A program made the translations under genes and the position numbers. Positions 53,715 to 63,102 of a stretch of DNA of 64,000 nt are shown piece after piece. Source of the DNA: Euryarchaeota archaeon UBA552 (GTDB lineage Archaea; Thermoplasmatota; Poseidoniia; Poseidoniales; Thalassarchaeaceae); the NCBI GenBank assembly GCA_002499585.1, contig DAMH01000027.1:63789-127788 (forward strand), read 5' to 3'. The notes beneath the pieces were generated by a model that was given only the letters and a program-made list of their open reading frames with translations, was not told the origin of the DNA and did no database searches. Within the stretch, counting starts at the first letter, position 1. The number at the start of each line of letters is the position of its first letter.

Positions 53715-54575
53715 TCAGTCGCCGATTACTGCTACTCGTGTCTTGAGCATCGCAAGCCTCGTTGGGAAGTTGCCTGTCAAGAAGGCTATGTATTCGCAAA
53801 AGTGGATTACAGGAATGTTGGTGTTTAGACCTGTTGACCTGGACGCCTTTCCTTGATAGATGTCCAGAACCCCGTGGGACAGCGTGCAAGCGCTTATTAT
53901 CATCTGAGCACCCATTGATTTGGCATCGGAGAGTATCGTTGCGGATTGCCTCAGAACGGTATTTTCCTCTGAGAATATCCCCGGTGTTCCTGCTGATGAT
54001 GTCCTGGAGGTATATCTGATCGGCGTACCTCCTGAAGACTCTATTATCGATTCCATGTACCATGGATCAAAAATATCATCGCCGCCTACAAGCCCTTCCT
54101 GCTGGAGGTTCGGGCCATAATAAGGTCCTAGTCTGGATGATATTGGGTTCTTCACCTTCTTCAGGAAATTATCCAGCCCTAGATCTTCGACTATGACATG
54201 CAAGAAATGTCTAATTTTTATTGACCCTTCGAGGGATCTTCCAGTAGTTTTTTGCAGTGTCTTGTTGACTTCCCCCATTAGGCTCGGGTCAGATTTCATC
54301 ATTTCCAAGTCCTCATGCAAGGTGGCTGCAGTCGTGGCACACGGGGTGATGATATCCAGCCCCAGATCCTCTGCCATGGACATGGTCCTTGCATTGAGTG
54401 TTATCTGCAAACGCCTGTTCGCCTGGCCCAATATACCTGCACCGCAGCTGGTTGCACCAGGCATGTCTATCAAGTCTACATCTAGGGATCTGCAGGCTGC
54501 ACGCATCGTCTCATCCACCTCTGGAGCGCTGCTGTGGGCAACATTTCCGGGGTGGTATGCGTACCGAACCGGCAT
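53715..54575 (-). CDS. HdrB/SdhE-like double CCG-domain protein with degenerate cysteine motifs
   Basis: YHPGN (cf. YYPGC), SCGAG (CCGAG), LNART, TPCATT, YYGP (YYGC), SAG (CCG), SACTLSH (TACPxCH), IPVIH. Confidence 0.85.
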   Translation of the reverse strand: MPVRYAYHPGNVAHSSAPEVDETMRAACRSLDVDLIDMPGATSCGAGILGQANRRLQITLNARTMSMAEDLGLDIITPCATTAATLHEDLEMMKSDPSLMGEVNKTLQKTTGRSLEGSIKIRHFLHVIVEDLGLDNFLKKVKNPISSRLGPYYGPNLQQEGLVGGDDIFDPWYMESIIESSGGTPIRYTSRTSSAGTPGIFSEENTVLRQSATILSDAKSMGAQMIISACTLSHGVLDIYQGKASRSTGLNTNIPVIHFCEYIAFLTGNFPTRLAMLKTRVAVIGD

Positions 54576-54587
54576 TCCAATTTCTCC

Positions 54588-56798
54588 TCAGAATCTGCGA
54601 TCAAGGGTGTTAAAGATAGATACTACTTCATAGTGCTTGTCCACTCTCTTGTTGAATTGTTTGGGCATCTTACCAATTCCAGCTGGAGGTACTACCAGTC
54701 CGAGGATGTCGTTGACCATCTTACCACCGGTTCTTGTGAAACCGGTCAGCATTCTTGCTGTGACGCCGGAGGTCAGGTTCGAGAGTAGTCCAAGGGGACC
54801 TAGAACTTGCCTGTAGAGTACCGTATCATTTACTCTTCCGCTGCTTTTGAGAGTCCATGCATACCACCACACATGTTTCCCATGACGACCGTTGTACCCA
54901 TTTGATTCCAATGCACTGGTTCTGGCTTCCGAAAGGGCATTTTGAACGCCTCTGCCGGCAAGGGGTTGTCTGGCCATCGGAGCTAAGTCGGTTTCAGCCA
55001 GTATCGCATCTGGTCCGCTCAGGATTTTGTCGATTTGTTTGATCTTCTTGTCAGAGGTTCTGGAATCGGACTTCTTGATCCAAAGGTCTAGACATACCGA
55101 CGGACCGAGGTAGGAGTTAGCATAGGCTACAGAGTCTGAGCAGGAATGCAATATCTGGGATCCGAATCTGTTTGACATGGCATGTAGCTTCGTGGCTTCG
55201 ACAGCACTCATTGGCCCGATAAGGGTCCCCTGATCAGTCCTCAGGGCCTCCCTTGTCTTAGACACATGCCAGACTGATGCTTCTTGTCTTTTCTTTGTAA
55301 GCGCACTGAAATCCACGCATAAGTCCCTTACAACGTCGTAACCGGGAAGTGGCTCAATTTTCATAACAATCGAACCGGGGCGCCCGTTGGAGAGTTGCTC
55401 TATCCGGGTGATGCCGGGGAGAGTTATGCGTCCATTGACGGATATGGCGGTGTTGGGGTCATGTGGAGCTCCGTCTGTGAAACACAAACTGCCGTCATGT
55501 GTCCTTTGGATGGACCTGAGGGCCTCGAGCAAGGTCATGTGGCCTGGGAGCGAGCATAACCAAGTGTCGAGTCCACTCGTTTTCTCATGAGGGTCGTACC
55601 TGAACACTCCCAGTTGAATTTCGACTTCTTCGCCGTGCAAGTCTGGGATGCTGAAGCCGTCTTCACCATCGGCTACCACTGCACCGCCATCAGCCATGTC
55701 GCGTATGGAATCAATGAGCTCTTCGTGCAAGTTTCCTGAGTCATCGACTGCCGAGAGCATGGTTAGGGCTTCAGAGGCCCATTCCGATGCTACGGCCTCA
55801 TAGTCCACATCGCAGTCTACGCGGGCTGCCACGCGCCTTGCACCTAACTCTTCCAACTTGTTGTCCCAATCTTTTCCTGATTGGCAAAACAACTCGTATG
55901 AGGTGTCTCCGAGAGCGAGTACCGAGAAGGAAACGCCGTCCATTTTTGGGGCGCTTCCCGAGGAGGCGGCCAACCAAAGGGCCTCTGCATTGTCTGGCAT
56001 CTCTCCTTCGCCCCATGTCGAGCAGATGATGGCGACTCTTTTCATCGACGCCATGGCATTGATGTCAAAGCCGTCCATGTCATGAACGATTCCTTTCAAT
56101 CCATAATTTTCAGCTCTCTTTGCGAAATTGGATGCTAGTTGTTCGGAATTCCCCGATTGAGAACCAAAGAATATGTTCAGTGTTCTGTCTCCGGTTCCGA
56201 GTAAATCCTCAAGGCCGCCTCCAACGGCAATTTTATCCTTATTTTGATCCGTTTCGATCGCTTTTTCATCAGGGGTCTCTGGGACAGATCGGACTTCTCC
56301 TATTTTGCTTGGGTCGTAGGCTCCCGACGAGTCTACTACGGATAGGTGGGAAAGTGCTTCTGAAGTAAATAGTGCTGCAGGCTTATCATAATCTACGTCA
56401 CAATCAACCCTAGTGACCAGCCTATTTGCTCCTTGTTTTTCGAACCATTGGTCCCAGTCTTTTCCAGATTGACAGAAAAGATCGTATGACGAATCCCCTA
56501 GGGAACATACTGCAAAATGGCAGGTGGTCAAGGAGGGGAGGGAATCGCCTTGGGCTTGCTGCCAAAGATCCTCTGCATTGTCAGGCATCTCCCCCTCACC
56601 CCATGTGCTGCAGTAAATTAGGACCCTGTTGTAACTAGATAGGTCGGAAATTTTTATTTCGTCCATCCCTTTTACGATCGGTTCAAGGCCGTGTGATTTG
56701 GCTTCTTTGGCGGCTTTGGTGCAGAGGTCCTCAGCGTTGCCGGACTGGGATCCGTAAAGTATCAGCAAGGGAAGTTCGGAGGACATTGTAATCACCAT
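54588..56798 (-). CDS. Tandem flavodoxin-flavodoxin fused to a cysteine-less SdhB/FrdB-like domain
   Basis: Two FMN-binding domains (GSQSGN, STWGEGEMPDNA, LGD.SY.LFCQSG). These are followed by the SdhB landmarks VFRYDP, TLLEAL..I...DGSL.F, VNG, IEPLPGYDVVRDLCVD, YLGP and DSR. Confidence 0.88.
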   Translation of the reverse strand: MVITMSSELPLLILYGSQSGNAEDLCTKAAKEAKSHGLEPIVKGMDEIKISDLSSYNRVLIYCSTWGEGEMPDNAEDLWQQAQGDSLPSLTTCHFAVCSLGDSSYDLFCQSGKDWDQWFEKQGANRLVTRVDCDVDYDKPAALFTSEALSHLSVVDSSGAYDPSKIGEVRSVPETPDEKAIETDQNKDKIAVGGGLEDLLGTGDRTLNIFFGSQSGNSEQLASNFAKRAENYGLKGIVHDMDGFDINAMASMKRVAIICSTWGEGEMPDNAEALWLAASSGSAPKMDGVSFSVLALGDTSYELFCQSGKDWDNKLEELGARRVAARVDCDVDYEAVASEWASEALTMLSAVDDSGNLHEELIDSIRDMADGGAVVADGEDGFSIPDLHGEEVEIQLGVFRYDPHEKTSGLDTWLCSLPGHMTLLEALRSIQRTHDGSLCFTDGAPHDPNTAISVNGRITLPGITRIEQLSNGRPGSIVMKIEPLPGYDVVRDLCVDFSALTKKRQEASVWHVSKTREALRTDQGTLIGPMSAVEATKLHAMSNRFGSQILHSCSDSVAYANSYLGPSVCLDLWIKKSDSRTSDKKIKQIDKILSGPDAILAETDLAPMARQPLAGRGVQNALSEARTSALESNGYNGRHGKHVWWYAWTLKSSGRVNDTVLYRQVLGPLGLLSNLTSGVTARMLTGFTRTGGKMVNDILGLVVPPAGIGKMPKQFNKRVDKHYEVVSIFNTLDRRF

Positions 56799-58685: not shown

Positions 58686-61600
58686 TCATTCCTGGTCCTC
58701 GGGTTCAGATGGAAGGTTTGTTGGCTGGCTGAATATTTCTTGTGCCCCGCCTAGCGCTGAGTTAGCTATGTGATCATGGATGGGCAAATCTGGAGGGAGG
58801 CCAAGTGGTTCAAAATTTGTGTACTCCTCCATAGGGCCGCCAGCTCCGCGCACGATCCTTACAGCCGTGAATAGAATGGCCAGTGCCCCTATCACACCAA
58901 CAGCGATGAGAAGATAGTTCCCCAGAGTAAGGCCAATCTCCTCTACGTTGGGACCTTCATCCACGGGATTGGATTTTAGCATTGTTAGAGGGGTGCTGCT
59001 ACTGGTTTTGTCAATGTCAGTGTCAACAAGCAGCGTCAGCGCAAATAGCATGGAGTTATCCTCAAGATTTCGAAGGTTGTCTTCGTCGATTACGAGGGTG
59101 ACTTTGACTAGTCGAGTCTCATCTGAGCCCAGAACGAAGTCTCTGTCACTGGTATCAACTCGGGCGTCGAAGACGTTGAAGAATAGGTCAGACTGCCTGT
59201 CGATGTCGGCACGTACCAACTGTTCGTACGAGGGGTGAAGGTTCCGTATCGAGAAGAATAAGTCGTAAGATCCCTCTTCGGATATGGTGGTCATAGCTTG
59301 TTCTGGGAATATTTGGAGCCATCCTACGGAGCCAACATCAAAAACAGCTGAACCGGAATCCTCCACAACTACATTCCTCTGTGCCGCAAGGTCCGATTTG
59401 GCCACCATCGAGACTACTCTCTCGCCAAAGGTGTCCGAATCAAAGCTGTATGAGACAGTGACGTTGTATGAAGAGCCAGCAGGTATCCAAGGAGTCAGGT
59501 CGCCATCTTCCCCGCTCTCCACAGTGACATCGGTAAGATGATCAAATGATAGTCTGTAACGGTCCATCTGATTTCCTCGGTTCCAGACCTCCCACCTCAG
59601 AGTTCTCGGTTCATCGCCCCCCCTGTAGACCTCGTCCGACATATCCAGTTCGGCTACTTCCACAAGCTGTGTTGAGGGCACTGTCAGGGTCATGGTTGTC
59701 TGCACTTCATACAAGGGGTTTGACTGACTTCGTGCAGTAACCCTCAGCAAGTATGTTTCATTATCCACGCCATAGGGCATGGGTAACAAAAGGAGTACGG
59801 ACGTATCCCCTCCGAAGGGGTCGATCCCAAGTGTCGAGGGCGTGCTGAGTCTGGCCCTTAAGGATGGGTCGGCGGTCACAAAGAGATCGTATGCCTCCTC
59901 TGAGTTGCCATTGTTGATTATTACTAGTTCCACTATGCGGGACGCGTTGTCCGCCGGAATCGTCCGCTCTCTGAACTCGGGGATTATCTCTAACTCGAAC
60001 TTATTGAGCACCTCAATCCGCAGAACTCTGTCAGCAGGGAAATTATTGGGTGCCTTTCCGTTGACATCAAGCCTGAGGTCATATATTCCGGGGATGGCAT
60101 CCTCGGGAACTGAGACATGAGGTATTAGATCGATTTCGTCTCCGATAGAGGTGAATATCGTTTCGATTGTGGCTCCTGTTTCATTGGACCATCTGATAAG
60201 AGTTGATGGGTCCCAGTTGGGTTCGTCAAGGTAGACGCCTCCGAGGTTCCAACTCCCAATTTGATTGCCGGTGTTGCTGAATGTGAGAGGAACACTGCCT
60301 GAATCCCCTGGATACAATTGAAGATGCGGATTGCCGCCAGAGGGATTGAAATCTAGGTCTATGAAACCGGAATATGATGGTTGAACATCGACGTATTGCA
60401 CTATTGGCTCCCCGAGTTCAAGCTTTGAAGCGTTAGTCAAGCCGTCATTGATGTGTATGTGCCATTCTAGTGACTCGACAGTTACAGATGCGGGAATGGA
60501 CAGATTAAACCACGCGGGCATTGTTGTTTGAGCTTTTATGATTTTAGTGACAATGAAAGAGTCTTTGTCGTTTGTACCTGGAGTATCGATTCTGATTAAA
60601 TCAGGCCAAGAGGAGTTGGTGACTTCGCTGTAGATCCTTAGAGTTATGTCGACGTATCCGTTGTTTGTTATGCCGCAAGCTAATTCGATAGGGTCCCCAA
60701 CTGGGATGACGGGATGAGCTTCTATCCCCTCTTTGTAATCTCCAGCGCAGTCCACGGAAATGGTGTATTCGGGGATCTTTTGGATAGCGAAGAGGAGGAA
60801 ACCGTCAATCTCTATCCCCGGGGTGGCACTCGTGCCATCGCTTCTAAAGAGGTATGAAAGTCGGTATTCTTGCTGAGCATGCACATCTGACATGTCCCAA
60901 ATTACCTGTTCCCACGAGTCATTGGAAGGCAATGTCATGTTTGTGAAATTTAATTCTTTGACATCAAGGCCTGAGACTGCTTGGAGTGTGACTGAGTCTC
61001 CCTGCCCCATCGCGCCTCTCGCGTTGGTGACTAACTGCATGGAATAAAATTGGTAACCGCGCACAACAGCGCCGCACATGAAAGCATCATGCACCGTACT
61101 GATTTGTGTATCCAAACTGCCGGCACCAAGTCCGTGTCCTGTATCACTGCATGCGGTATCGGCGGCCCTGAAACCTAGATGCAGCCTGTCAATCCTGCCA
61201 CTGGCGTAATCTAGCTGGCTATTTCCCGATATCCTCCAATGTGAGTCCCCGACGGCTGATGTGGTATTTGAGTAGTCTAGCCTCCAATGGCCTGCGTCAT
61301 CCGGGTCAGTGGAAAGTGTTCCGTCAGAATCGTAACCAGCAGTTAGCCATATCAAACCCAAATTGGGGGGATTGGGGCAGTTGATAACACCGTCTCCATC
61401 GACATCTGAGCACCACCCTTCATCCAGAGGGTCGTCAATCACGGCCACGGGAATTTCTCGCGATAGTACGTCATTGGATGGATCTTCATCAATACCGACT
61501 CCAGAATCTATTTCTACAGATACCAACAAGCCCCCACTCAAGGCCCCTTCCGGGGAAAGGACACTGTGAGAATAATTCGGGACATAGGTGAACGACTCTT

Positions 61601-61973
61601 GTTTGGCCTCTCCTCCTGTGAGGGTAACATTGGCTGAGAATTCTGCTAATGATATGCCAACTGGGTGGGTTACATTGACGTAGTAATCCGCATATTGCCC
61701 CTGCGCTCCTATTCCGAGTTGAGTGATTCTCACAGTTATGGTGAGGGTTTCGTCTCTTACGATGTATTCAGCGAGTTCCCCATCAGGTTGTTGCCAGATT
61801 GGTAAAGAGCTAGATGCAGAGGAAAATTCTATTGTCGTGACTTCGAAATCAGTCACAGCCCTAGCTGAAACGTGTGATTTTACATCTCCGCCTGAATCAC
61901 TCAATGCAACTCCTTGAACGGGCAATATCAACGCTGCGAGGAGCAGGGGCAACACGGCCGAGCGACCAGACAT
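58686..61973 (-). CDS. Large cell-surface protein (signal peptide, Ig-like/NEW3-type repeats, C-terminal TM anchor)
   Basis: 1095 aa, acidic and beta-rich; repeated N.GN..D/E.Y.L motifs; C-terminal hydrophobic helix with a short tail. Confidence 0.8.
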   Translation of the reverse strand: MSGRSAVLPLLLAALILPVQGVALSDSGGDVKSHVSARAVTDFEVTTIEFSSASSSLPIWQQPDGELAEYIVRDETLTITVRITQLGIGAQGQYADYYVNVTHPVGISLAEFSANVTLTGGEAKQESFTYVPNYSHSVLSPEGALSGGLLVSVEIDSGVGIDEDPSNDVLSREIPVAVIDDPLDEGWCSDVDGDGVINCPNPPNLGLIWLTAGYDSDGTLSTDPDDAGHWRLDYSNTTSAVGDSHWRISGNSQLDYASGRIDRLHLGFRAADTACSDTGHGLGAGSLDTQISTVHDAFMCGAVVRGYQFYSMQLVTNARGAMGQGDSVTLQAVSGLDVKELNFTNMTLPSNDSWEQVIWDMSDVHAQQEYRLSYLFRSDGTSATPGIEIDGFLLFAIQKIPEYTISVDCAGDYKEGIEAHPVIPVGDPIELACGITNNGYVDITLRIYSEVTNSSWPDLIRIDTPGTNDKDSFIVTKIIKAQTTMPAWFNLSIPASVTVESLEWHIHINDGLTNASKLELGEPIVQYVDVQPSYSGFIDLDFNPSGGNPHLQLYPGDSGSVPLTFSNTGNQIGSWNLGGVYLDEPNWDPSTLIRWSNETGATIETIFTSIGDEIDLIPHVSVPEDAIPGIYDLRLDVNGKAPNNFPADRVLRIEVLNKFELEIIPEFRERTIPADNASRIVELVIINNGNSEEAYDLFVTADPSLRARLSTPSTLGIDPFGGDTSVLLLLPMPYGVDNETYLLRVTARSQSNPLYEVQTTMTLTVPSTQLVEVAELDMSDEVYRGGDEPRTLRWEVWNRGNQMDRYRLSFDHLTDVTVESGEDGDLTPWIPAGSSYNVTVSYSFDSDTFGERVVSMVAKSDLAAQRNVVVEDSGSAVFDVGSVGWLQIFPEQAMTTISEEGSYDLFFSIRNLHPSYEQLVRADIDRQSDLFFNVFDARVDTSDRDFVLGSDETRLVKVTLVIDEDNLRNLEDNSMLFALTLLVDTDIDKTSSSTPLTMLKSNPVDEGPNVEEIGLTLGNYLLIAVGVIGALAILFTAVRIVRGAGGPMEEYTNFEPLGLPPDLPIHDHIANSALGGAQEIFSQPTNLPSEPEDQE

Positions 61974-62076: not shown

Positions 62077-63102
62077 ATGAAGACCTTATCCGTCTTGAAC
62101 AATCCAGCCGGCTCTATGCTGACGCAGAACAGCCGCCACAGGGTGTTCTTGATGTTAGTCGTCCTGGGGCAAATTTCATTTGTTCCAATTGTCATATTCG
62201 GGCTTACGAGGTTTGTTGAAACCGGCTGGACTGACGGGAGCCCCTACTTACTGTTCAGATGGGATCTCATCCCCTGGATTTGCTCAACCGGCATTTTCTA
62301 TGGAATGATATCGTTGATTTTGGCAATCGTGATGAGCGGTTGGATGCCCTCCGCCATTGCCATGAGGGGCGGATGGCTGGCATTCCTGGGGTTGTGGGGC
62401 CGCAGCAGGGACCCAAGAAAGATAGACAGGGCTTCGACAAGCCTATCCTCCAGCCCCTATGGACTACTCGCAACAGTTACTTCCAGACAAAGGGACCGAT
62501 TTGACCTTATATTCGTCCACGGGGGCCTTCAGACTCTCGCTATACCGATACAGGCCGTCTTAATCGCTCTCCCGATTATGGCCATCGAATATCTCCCCGA
62601 AGGAATCGTCAGGGGCGATGCCACACTTGAGCTTGTCAGCTTGGTCTATCTTGTGTCCCTGTGGATTGGTATGAGAATCCAGGTTGCGTATTCTCAGAAA
62701 CTTGTTGTTCCAGCTACTTACATGCGGCGATTCCTCGGAAGAACAGCGCAACTATCATGGGTGCTGCCCGTGATTGTGTATTGGTTTGTAGCGAGGACGA
62801 TCCTCGGATTCTTGCTAGGTGCAATGGGGATCGACTTGGGAGATCAGACCATAGAATTCGATATCTTGATCCTGGAGGAAATACTACCGGTGGAGCAGGA
62901 TGAAGCTGGAACTCCGTTAATTGATTTGATAGTCGCAATGGGTGTGCTTCCAGTTGCGACATTTACCACAATTTCCGTGTTGGCTGGAGGATATGAGATA
63001 CCAGAGTGGATGGATCCAAATAAGTTGGTTGGGAATATGAGGGATGGTATGTTGACTGAGGGTGAACAAGCGCCCCTCACGTTTGAAGATCAGAATTCCT
63101 GA
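62077..63102 (+). CDS. Hypothetical multi-pass membrane protein
   Basis: 341-aa ORF with about 6-7 hydrophobic segments. Confidence 0.75.
   Translation: MKTLSVLNNPAGSMLTQNSRHRVFLMLVVLGQISFVPIVIFGLTRFVETGWTDGSPYLLFRWDLIPWICSTGIFYGMISLILAIVMSGWMPSAIAMRGGWLAFLGLWGRSRDPRKIDRASTSLSSSPYGLLATVTSRQRDRFDLIFVHGGLQTLAIPIQAVLIALPIMAIEYLPEGIVRGDATLELVSLVYLVSLWIGMRIQVAYSQKLVVPATYMRRFLGRTAQLSWVLPVIVYWFVARTILGFLLGAMGIDLGDQTIEFDILILEEILPVEQDEAGTPLIDLIVAMGVLPVATFTTISVLAGGYEIPEWMDPNKLVGNMRDGMLTEGEQAPLTFEDQNS

What the first reader, a model, noticed from the sequence alone, without database searches (positions are those of the whole stretch)
54588..56798. Flavodoxin-flavodoxin-'pseudo-SdhB' fusion with all cluster ligands substituted in register
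Seen: aa ~9-155 and ~205-352 are near-duplicate CysJ/CPR-type flavodoxins with intact FMN motifs; aa ~391-630 follow SdhB. The [2Fe-2S] loop FRRSCREGICGSCAMNING reads FTDGAPHDPNTAISVNG, and LAC reads LPG. The [4Fe-4S] motif aligns without gaps to E. coli [20 protein letters not shown] as KLHAMSNRFGSQILHSCSDS (ligand positions R544, S547, L550, S554). The third motif CHSIMNCVSVCPKG aligns as ETDLAPMARQPLAG (E602, M608, P612). The Cys residues left in this part (C415, C439, C494, C553, C569) are off-ligand. Flanking residues (FRYDP, IEPLP, RDLCVD, YLGP, DSR) are kept, which suggests selection on the fold rather than decay. Reference sequences are from memory.
Basis: partly seen in the sequence, partly recalled or inferred. 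Interest (0 to 1): 0.85.

Follow-up and report, generated by a model that had tools for sequence, protein, structure and literature searches.

The report
Cluster-less SdhB with tethered flavodoxins
A core gene of the abundant ocean archaea Marine Group II encodes two flavodoxin domains fused to a succinate-dehydrogenase iron-sulfur subunit that has lost every cluster-binding cysteine yet stays under strong selection. With its equally eroded HdrB/SdhE-like partner it is predicted to form an iron-sulfur-free redox module of unknown function.

Summary
The gene lies on the minus strand (54588-56798, 736 aa). It encodes two CysJ-type flavodoxin domains (54% identical to each other) and a long-form (type-E) SdhB. 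All 11 conserved Fe-S ligand positions, and a twelfth type-E position, are non-cysteine in register. The AlphaFold model still matches FrdB/SdhB structures (TM 0.72).

It is not decay. The family is single-copy in 150 of 151 Poseidoniales genomes and absent from the rest of the phylum. Non-synonymous change is far below synonymous change. S554 and E602 at former ligand sites are invariant.

The gene always sits directly upstream of an HdrB/SdhE-like CCG protein (53715-54575), which keeps 3 of 10 cysteines here. The nearest cysteine-intact relatives lie in sdhA-sdhB-sdhE operons.

Across the order the N-terminal carriers vary: ferredoxin-flavodoxin, flavodoxin-flavodoxin, flavodoxin alone, or ferredoxin-ferredoxin. 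The partner's first CCG cluster site was lost twice independently.

My best reading is a cluster-less SdhB/SdhE scaffold carrying mobile tethered electron carriers, with no predicted Fe-S cluster in this genome. The substrate and partners are unknown. An orphan TfrA-like flavoprotein nearby is excluded as the obligate partner. I found no paper describing the family, and public annotations mislabel both proteins.

The parts
54588..56798 (-). Whole gene: Fld-Fld-SdhB*-C-extension fusion protein, 736 aa (P0001). Public gene calls start 4 codons later (732 aa).
56334..56774 (-). Flavodoxin domain 1 (aa 9-155), CysJ/CPR-type FMN domain. The GSQSGNAE, STWGEGEMPDNA and LGDSSY..FC loops are conserved.
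   Evidence: Pfam Flavodoxin_1; near-invariant FMN-loop residues; pLDDT about 90; replaced by a Fer4_13 ferredoxin domain in a same-genus relative
56190..56333 (-). Linker 1 (aa 156-203): acidic, poorly conserved and predicted disordered. Candidate flexible tether.
   Evidence: column entropy 1.9-2.5; pLDDT 24-29
55743..56189 (-). Flavodoxin domain 2 (aa 204-352). Present in 28 of the 29 genomes compared across the order; one has two ferredoxin domains instead.
   Evidence: structure match to the E. coli CysJ FMN domain 1ykg, TM 0.93, 41% identity
55629..55742 (-). Linker 2 (aa 353-390), partly disordered.
   Evidence: pLDDT below 50 for aa 371-387
55299..55628 (-). SdhB* N-domain (aa 391-500): Fer2_3 fold without [2Fe-2S] ligands (A444, 2-residue deletion, T450, G462). 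The former cluster loop DGSLxFxDG..D.xT.xxVNGR is highly conserved.
   Evidence: pLDDT 82-93
54894..55298 (-). SdhB* helical domain (aa 501-635), formerly holding the [4Fe-4S] and [3Fe-4S]/second [4Fe-4S] clusters. Ligand positions are R544, S547, L550, S554, E602, L605, M608 and P612. S554 and E602 are invariant, and the D578-x-R580 (DSR) motif is kept.
   Evidence: Foldseek alignment spans the whole FrdB/SdhB chain
54591..54893 (-). C-terminal extension (aa 636-736). It is the most conserved part of the protein, is homologous to the extension of long-form (type-E) SdhB, and carries a family-specific insert GFTRTGG...PPAGIGKMP. It is not confidently modelled alone and probably forms the interface to the CCG partner.
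   Evidence: entropy 0.22-0.33; pN 0.033; hhalign runs to template residue 322 of 328; pLDDT below 50; no Pfam hit; no solved structure covers it
53715..54575 (-). Partner gene (P0002, 286 aa), 12 nt downstream: an HdrB/SdhE-like protein with two CCG domains that keeps only C44, C79 and C230 of the 10 motif cysteines.
   Evidence: directly downstream in all 28 other genomes compared and

Best explanation
The gene encodes a working protein, not a decaying one. A long-form (type-E) SdhB lost all three Fe-S clusters at the origin of the order Poseidoniales and now serves as a structural scaffold. Through its very conserved C-terminal extension it pairs with the co-transcribed HdrB/SdhE-like CCG protein.

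Redox capacity now sits in small carrier domains fused to the N-terminus through disordered acidic linkers. In this genome these are two FMN-binding flavodoxin domains. In relatives they are ferredoxin-flavodoxin, a single flavodoxin, or two ferredoxins.

These tethered domains most likely act as mobile shuttles, as the FMN domain does in diflavin reductases. They would carry electrons between an external low-potential donor, such as the genome's 2-oxoacid:ferredoxin oxidoreductase, and an acceptor site on or docked to the SdhB*/CCG* scaffold. In this genome the two-protein module is predicted to hold no Fe-S cluster at all, only FMN.

Shown: fold, homology, ligand loss, conservation, gene pairing, domain swapping, and the order of the losses.
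Inferred: FMN binding, physical pairing through the C-extension, the shuttle mechanism, and the donor and acceptor.
For: - Fold and homology.
- All 11 ligand columns are non-Cys in 29 genomes of 22 genera, with S554 and E602 invariant.
- Single copy in 150 of 151 genomes of the order and 58 of 58 high-quality ones. Absent from the sister order and the rest of the phylum.
- Purifying selection: pN 0.03-0.16 against pS above 0.8.
- FMN loops are nearly invariant in both flavodoxin domains.
- The linkers are the least conserved and are disordered.
- The CCG gene is always directly downstream, with overlapping stop and start in relatives.
- The three nearest Cys-intact relatives examined sit in (sdhA-)sdhB-sdhE operons; two contigs show sdhA and the third begins at sdhB. 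The fused carriers therefore occupy the place of sdhA.
- The N-terminal module swaps between sister genomes: own Fld-Fld against same-genus Fdx-Fld, with Fld-only forms verified by tblastn.
- The genome encodes an OFOR alpha subunit and a free flavodoxin.
Against:
- The relative placement of the domains is not predicted (pTM 0.33).
- No donor, acceptor or substrate is identified, and the gene neighbourhood (thermosome, Hef helicase, ribosomal operon) is uninformative.
- In Fld-only lineages without CCG cysteines the whole module would hold a single FMN. That makes an internal electron path hard to picture and leaves a non-redox role open.
- The C-extension to CCG contact is inferred only from conservation and gene order.
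Confidence: 0.6

Rival explanations
1. Iron-free alternative SdhB. SdhB* docks onto the canonical SdhA, or onto the orphan TfrA-like flavoprotein, and the flavodoxin FMNs replace the Fe-S wire. The result would be a soluble, Fe-S-free fumarate reductase or succinate dehydrogenase used under iron scarcity.
For: - It descends from an SdhB whose ancestral operon began with sdhA.
- The former [2Fe-2S] loop, which faces SdhA in complex II, is one of the most conserved stretches.
- A canonical SdhA was found in 68 of 70 genomes of the order.
- A TfrA-like flavoprotein lies 14 kb away in this genome.
Against: - The TfrA-like gene has close orthologues in only 3 of 70 genomes.
- This genome keeps a canonical, fully cysteine-ligated SdhB next to its SdhA, so no replacement is needed.
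- There is no synteny with any sdhA.
- SdhB lost its clusters in every lineage, including those that keep a ferredoxin domain and an intact CCG cluster site. Iron economy alone therefore did not drive that loss.
- Flavodoxin potentials suit fumarate reduction only, which is odd for aerobic heterotrophs.
Confidence: 0.15
2. Non-redox or regulatory role. The SdhB*/CCG* pair is a pseudo-enzyme scaffold, sensor or assembly factor. The flavodoxin and ferredoxin domains report cellular redox state rather than passing electrons to a substrate.
For: - All internal electron-transfer cofactors are lost.
- The N-terminal module is dispensable or swappable.
- The most conserved part is a cofactor-free extension.
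Against: - Every variant keeps at least one intact carrier domain with conserved cofactor motifs.
- Ten of 29 genomes keep a complete five-Cys CCG cluster site in the partner. That points to an ancestral catalytic redox function.
Confidence: 0.12
3. The clusters are still bound through non-cysteine ligands (Ser, Glu, Asp, His).
For: S554 and E602 are invariant at two former ligand positions of the same (third) cluster, and H551, D555 and D604 nearby are nearly invariant.
Against: - Seven of the other nine ligand columns vary freely or hold non-ligating residues (Gly, Leu, Ile, Pro, Phe, Arg and others).
- Two columns hold Gly or Asp and Thr or Ser.
- The [2Fe-2S] loop has a 2-residue deletion.
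- At most two ligands per site remain.
Confidence: 0.03
4. A decaying gene remnant or an annotation artefact.
For: Loss of every defining cofactor ligand.
Against: An intact 736-codon frame, universal single-copy presence, strong purifying selection and 39 invariant columns across 29-100% identity.
Confidence: 0.01

Closest known systems
Type-E ('non-classical') succinate:quinone reductase / methylmenaquinol:fumarate reductase, subunits SdhB (long form; NCBIfam PRK12576, PRK12577, NF042952) and SdhE (CCG protein), as in Sulfolobus/Acidianus SdhABEF and Wolinella/Campylobacter MfrABE (PMC2754724, PMC2680327)
   Same: - SdhB fold with a homologous C-terminal extension (hhalign 99.9%, 301 columns).
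- A two-CCG-domain protein encoded immediately downstream.
- No transmembrane segment in either protein.
   Different: - All SdhB cluster ligands are lost.
- The CCG partner keeps 3 of 10 cysteines here.
- There is no sdhA in the operon. One or two ferredoxin or flavodoxin domains are fused in its place.
- The extension carries an extra 22-residue insert.
- The genome has a separate canonical SDH.
Thiol:fumarate reductase subunit TfrB (NCBIfam PRK06259) and HdrB of heterodisulfide reductase (PDB 5odc, 8rvv)
   Same: - The same domain content as a split TfrB (SdhB-like plus HdrB-like).
- P0002 matches HdrB structures at E 4e-32 to 1e-31 over nearly its full length.
   Different: - Two genes instead of one.
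- No non-cubane cluster ligand set in this genome.
- The TfrA-like gene is present in only 3 of 70 genomes.
- The organisms are aerobic heterotrophs and not methanogens.
FMN domains of diflavin reductases (CysJ, cytochrome P450 reductase, NDOR1) and short-chain flavodoxins (MioC)
   Same: - Both N-terminal domains score as Flavodoxin_1 and as CysJ FMN domains.
- The model superposes on the E. coli CysJ FMN domain with TM 0.93.
- A flexible tether suggests a swinging-domain mechanism.
   Different: - There is no FAD/NADPH (FNR-like) domain. The CysJ model scores 279 bits against a cut-off of 668.
- The public K00380/cysJ label is therefore wrong.
Ferredoxin-to-flavodoxin substitution under iron limitation (isiB/fldA in cyanobacteria, diatoms and enterobacteria; established knowledge)
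   Same: A [4Fe-4S] ferredoxin module and a flavodoxin module occupy the same position in close relatives, even within one genus.
   Different: The swap is a hard-wired domain replacement inside a fusion protein, not a regulated choice between two free carriers. Any link to iron supply is untested.

Membership tests
SdhB/FrdB iron-sulfur subunit (PF13085 Fer2_3 + Fer4_8/17; TIGR00384) | Two-domain SdhB fold | tested here: met
   Foldseek top 23 hits are SdhB/FrdB, E about 5e-12, target TM 0.66-0.74. PF13085 scores 39 bits against a cut-off of 27.
SdhB/FrdB iron-sulfur subunit | Four Cys ligands of the [2Fe-2S] cluster | tested here: not met
   A444, a deletion, T450 and G462. No Cys (apart from one isolated residue) in these columns in 29 genomes.
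SdhB/FrdB iron-sulfur subunit | CxxCxxCxxxCP and CxxxxxCxxxCP ligands of the [4Fe-4S] and [3Fe-4S] clusters | tested here: not met
   R544, S547, L550, S554, E602, M608 and P612. No Fer4 Pfam hit. TIGR00384 scores 44.8 bits against a cut-off of 88.
SdhB/FrdB iron-sulfur subunit | Encoded with, and bound to, an SdhA/FrdA flavoprotein | tested here: not met
   No FAD_binding_2 gene lies in the conserved neighbourhood. The nearby TfrA-like gene is present in 3 of 70 genomes. Physical binding could not be tested.
Long-form (type-E) SdhB paired with SdhE | C-terminal extension beyond the roughly 240-aa SdhB core | tested here: met
   hhalign aligns query 12-349 to template 17-322 of 328. The reference proteins hit NF042952, PRK12576 and PRK12577.
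Long-form (type-E) SdhB paired with SdhE | CCG-domain gene directly downstream | tested here: met
   Window 53715-54575, all 28 other genomes, and the reference operons.
Long-form (type-E) SdhB paired with SdhE | Extra Cys that converts the [3Fe-4S] site into a second [4Fe-4S] | tested here: not met
   L605 at that position.
Flavodoxin_1 (PF00258) | HMM score over the cut-off and conserved FMN phosphate and isoalloxazine loops | tested here: met
   209.6 bits over two stretches. GSQSGN, STWGEGE.PDNA and LGD(S/T)SY..FC are nearly invariant in both copies.
Flavodoxin_1 (PF00258) | Actual FMN binding | not testable with these tools
   Needs purified protein (UV-vis, HPLC of the released flavin).
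CysJ / diflavin reductase (TIGR01931, K00380) | FAD- and NADPH-binding FNR-like domain C-terminal to the FMN domain | tested here: not met
   Only profile positions 59-204 of 597 are matched. The score is 279 bits against a cut-off of 668.
HdrB/SdhE CCG proteins (PF02754), for the partner P0002 | Two CX31-39CCX35-36CXXC motifs (10 Cys) binding the cluster(s) | tested here: not met
   The motif positions read N11, S43, C44, C79, T82 and P155, S194, A195, C230, S233. Domain 1 is complete in 10 of 29 related genomes. Domain 2 is incomplete in all.
HdrB/SdhE CCG proteins (PF02754), for the partner P0002 | Overall sequence homology to HdrB/SdhE | tested here: met
   E 3.7e-32 to PDB 8rvv_B over residues 5-268. 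TIGR03288 gives 8e-34 and MFR SdhE gives 6e-25, both below their cut-offs.

The most novel reading that the evidence does not exclude
The pair is an Fe-S-free respiratory entry module peculiar to Marine Group II. Tethered flavodoxins, or ferredoxin in iron-richer lineages, would take electrons from 2-oxoacid:ferredoxin oxidoreductases. They would deliver them at the SdhB*/SdhE* scaffold to a quinone or a disulfide.

This would answer how these aerobic archaea re-oxidise reduced ferredoxin. Tully 2019 (PMC6336850) notes that they lack RnfACDEG. It would also be a natural example of a complex II electron wire being rebuilt without iron.
Probability: 0.2. Interest if true: 0.88.

Novelty: new variant of a known kind. 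Interest (0 to 1): 0.72.

Why it matters
Poseidoniales (Marine Group II) are among the most abundant archaea of the surface ocean and have no cultured member. A universal, strongly conserved gene pair of unknown function in them is a real gap in their bioenergetic map.

The family is also an unusually clean natural experiment in cofactor loss. A three-cluster Fe-S subunit was kept as a fold with none of its clusters. Its partner lost a cluster site twice independently. A ferredoxin domain was repeatedly replaced by a flavodoxin domain or dropped, ending in a module with no predicted iron.

If the module is redox-active, it would show how an Fe-S electron wire can be replaced by mobile flavin carriers, which bears on iron economy in the iron-poor ocean.

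In practice, public databases label these proteins as CysJ (K00380), as 'succinate dehydrogenase/fumarate reductase-like Fe-S protein', as 'heterodisulfide reductase iron-sulfur subunit B' or as 'cytochrome b subunit'. Such labels would mislead metabolic reconstructions of sulfur assimilation, complex II and Hdr in MGII.

Tried and rejected
- **Orphan TfrA-like flavoprotein as the missing partner.** It lies at C18:133764-135521, 14 kb from the gene. I rejected it as the obligate partner because close orthologues occur in only 3 of 70 genomes of the order, while the SdhB* gene is universal.
- **The gene as the genome's only SdhB.** Rejected, because a canonical sdhA-sdhB operon with all cysteines intact lies on contig C9.
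- **Relatives with intact clusters that would date the loss.** The exhaustive search of 1.8 billion representatives found only 15 clusters at E<1e-30, and the members examined all lack the ligand cysteines. The next hits (E 1e-6 to 1e-3) are ordinary long-form SdhBs. The origin therefore cannot be placed more closely than 'type-E-like SdhB'.
- **dN/dS.** Synonymous sites are saturated even against the same-genus orthologue (pS 0.81-0.89), so only pN and pS are reported.
- **Pfam scan of the C-terminal extension alone.** Nothing was found at E up to 1. No solved structure covers the long-form extension either.
- **Domain docking and filling of the cluster cavities.** The AF2 full-length model has pTM 0.33 and coordinates are not exposed, so neither could be examined.
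- **Literature.** Six searches found no description of this family. Two MGII genome papers do not mention it.
- **The 997-aa in-frame fusion of the two genes in genome G019.** It results from a deletion that removes about 30 highly conserved residues. I treat it as a probable assembly or MAG artefact and not as Rosetta-stone evidence.
Full report
**What is there.** The finding's coordinates hold one ORF on the minus strand (54588-56798, 736 aa). Neighbouring genes include a thermosome subunit, archaeal L3 and L4, and Hef. Named homologues come from Candidatus Thalassarchaeaceae and Marine Group II. The organism is therefore a Poseidoniales archaeon. The assembly is 1.36 Mb in 30 contigs and about 79% complete.

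**Domain content.**
- Pfam finds two Flavodoxin_1 domains (E 2.6e-62) and a Fer2_3 domain at aa 396-500 (39 bits against a cut-off of 27).
- NCBIfam places both flavodoxins with the FMN domain of CysJ. No FAD/NADPH part is present (279 bits against a cut-off of 668).
- NCBIfam aligns SdhB models to aa 392-585 and the long MFR-type SdhB model to aa 421-660. All of these SdhB scores are below the curated cut-offs.
- The two flavodoxin domains are 54% identical to each other.

**Checking the ligand map.**
- I aligned the C-terminal half with five cysteine-intact long-form SdhBs recovered by an exhaustive HMMER search. All 11 columns where the references have cluster cysteines are non-Cys here.
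  - [2Fe-2S] ligands: A444, a 2-residue deletion, T450 and G462.
  - First [4Fe-4S] motif: R544, S547, L550 and S554.
  - Second motif: E602, M608 and P612. L605 sits at the extra type-E cysteine.
- Profile-profile comparison of the family with the intact SdhBs gives probability 99.9% and E 1.3e-35 over 301 columns. The alignment runs through the C-terminal extension to template residue 322 of 328.
- An AlphaFold2 model built from 129 sequences has mean pLDDT 73.6. The flavodoxins and the SdhB N-domain are around 90.
- The model's best PDB matches are FrdB and SdhB chains, for example 6awf_F with E 5e-12, target TM 0.72 and 244 columns. The flavodoxin part matches the E. coli CysJ FMN domain with TM 0.93.

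**Not decay.**
- The C-terminal half has a single-copy match in 150 of 151 genomes sampled across the order. That includes 58 of 58 high-quality genomes and 22 of 22 genera.
- Outside the order it has no true match in the same class or in the rest of the phylum. Only three weak hits to ordinary SdhBs appear.
- The 1.8-billion-protein representative library holds only 15 clusters at E<1e-30.
- Thirty-nine columns are invariant down to 29% identity. They include S554 and E602, which were both ligands of the same (third) cluster, and the D578-x-R580 motif.
- Against the same-genus orthologue, synonymous sites are saturated (pS 0.81-0.89). pN is 0.094 in flavodoxin 2, 0.155 in SdhB* and 0.033 in the C-terminal extension.
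- Alternative ligands cannot rebuild the clusters. Seven of the other nine ligand columns vary freely or hold Gly, Leu, Ile, Pro, Phe or Arg. Two hold Gly or Asp and Thr or Ser.

**The partner and the origin.**
- Twelve nucleotides downstream lies a 286-aa protein (53715-54575, minus strand). It matches HdrB structures at E 4e-32 and SdhE models at 6e-25.
- Its ten CCG-motif positions read N11, S43, C44, C79, T82 and P155, S194, A195, C230, S233, so three of ten cysteines remain.
- This gene follows the fusion gene in all 28 other genomes I fetched and in three public contigs. Stop and start often overlap.
- The three nearest cysteine-intact SdhB relatives I looked up sit in sdhA-sdhB-sdhE (type-E or MFR-like) operons. 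One of the three contigs begins at sdhB.
- The pair therefore descends from the B and E subunits of a type-E complex II. In that enzyme SdhE binds a [4Fe-4S] cluster and a zinc site through its CCG cysteines (PMC2754724). The fused carriers now stand where sdhA stood.
- No solved structure covers the long-form extension. It is the most conserved part of this protein and AF2 cannot place it on its own. Both points suggest that it folds against a partner, most simply the CCG protein.

**A graded series of Fe-S loss across the order.** I fetched the locus from 28 genomes of 22 genera.

| Feature | What the 29 genomes show |
|---|---|
| SdhB* cluster ligands | Absent in every genome |
| N-terminal carriers | Ferredoxin (Fer4_13, four Cys)-flavodoxin in most, including all sampled genomes of family f3 and one genome of this window's own genus |
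| | Flavodoxin-flavodoxin in this genome and five other genera |
| | Single flavodoxin in three genomes, confirmed by tblastn |
| | Ferredoxin-ferredoxin in one genome |
| Partner's first CCG domain | All five cysteines kept in 10 of 29 genomes |
| | Cysteines lost in two well-supported clades with different replacement patterns: N-S-C-C-T in family f1 and N-S-D-C-S/A in family f3 |
| Partner's second CCG domain | Degenerate everywhere; only C79 and C230 are invariant |

- The two different replacement patterns in the first CCG domain imply two independent losses.
- Flavodoxin-flavodoxin and flavodoxin-only forms occur only inside the f1 clade that had already lost the CCG cluster site. Within that clade, sister genomes differ in architecture.
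- The inferred order of events is: SdhB clusters first (ancient), then the CCG cluster, then the ferredoxin domain.
- This window is an end state, with no predicted Fe-S cluster in the module.

**What it does.**
- A simple iron-free SdhB that partners a flavoprotein is not supported.
  - The genome has a canonical sdhA-sdhB operon with every cysteine intact.
  - The orphan TfrA-like flavoprotein 14 kb away has close orthologues in only 3 of 70 genomes of the order.
- Three conserved features stand out:
  - at least one intact carrier domain;
  - disordered, fast-evolving acidic linkers;
  - the cofactor-free scaffold with its extension and CCG partner.
- Three clusters span roughly 30-40 Å in complex II (established knowledge). 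Without them, electrons cannot tunnel through SdhB*.
- The most economical mechanism is therefore a swinging, tethered carrier, like the FMN domain of diflavin reductases. It would shuttle between an external donor and a site on or docked to the scaffold.
- The genome encodes a 2-oxoacid:ferredoxin oxidoreductase and a free flavodoxin.
- Tully 2019 (PMC6336850) noted that MGII carry RnfB but lack RnfACDEG. How they return ferredoxin electrons to the chain is thus open.
- A ferredoxin/flavodoxin-to-quinone or -disulfide role is attractive but untested. Neither protein has a transmembrane segment.

**Novelty and limits.**
- Six literature searches and two MGII genome papers gave no description of the family.
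- Database names (K00380/cysJ, 'SDH/FRD-like Fe-S protein', 'HdrB family', 'cytochrome b subunit') are misleading.
- Earlier notes of this same scan describe the family in other MGII genomes with the same general reading. They are not independent evidence, but everything they claim that I re-tested held.
- Model coordinates are not exposed, so cavity filling, domain docking and the geometry of C44, C79 and C230 remain open.

Noticed in passing
own genome C18:133764-135521 (L013:6765-8522), about 6 kb beyond the window's end: An orphan 585-aa SdhA/FrdA-family flavoprotein whose best match is TfrA (E 7e-167, below the cut-off). It has no Fe-S subunit gene beside it and is flanked by GlnII and an FEA1-related (iron-assimilation-like) lipoprotein. 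Close orthologues occur in only 3 of 70 Poseidoniales genomes.
   Followed up: partly
window 58686-61973 (-): A 1095-aa ORF with no Pfam or NCBIfam hit, just upstream of the thermosome gene. A similar 1158-1172-aa gene without any family holds the same position in other MGII contigs (L016, L017, L018).
   Followed up: no
window 62077-63102 (+): A 341-aa ORF with no Pfam or NCBIfam hit. A 360-365-aa gene without a family sits at the same place in the related contigs.
   Followed up: no
L048 (G019:C27:8300-12600), nt 2446-2800: In one genome the fusion gene and the CCG gene are joined in frame (997-aa ORF). A deletion removes about 30 highly conserved C-terminal residues (...VAPPA|DGRKIL|MPLKYSYHPGN...). 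This is probably a MAG or assembly artefact.
   Followed up: partly
own genome C9:36380-40143 (L012:2381-6144): The canonical SDH operon. It holds a 273-aa multi-pass membrane protein with no NCBIfam hit, then SdhA (part of it reads N because the stretch is withheld), then a 262-aa SdhB with all cluster cysteines.
   Followed up: partly
own genome C7:53439-53810 and C18:144530-144901: Two further Flavodoxin_1 domains. One lies in a 620-aa open frame, possibly a true diflavin reductase and the source of the CysJ-type domains. The other lies in a 159-aa free flavodoxin.
   Followed up: no
L016:13061-13480: In one relative a DCC1-like thiol-disulfide oxidoreductase gene (PF04134) is inserted right after the CCG gene. 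It is absent from the window and from L017 and L018.
   Followed up: no
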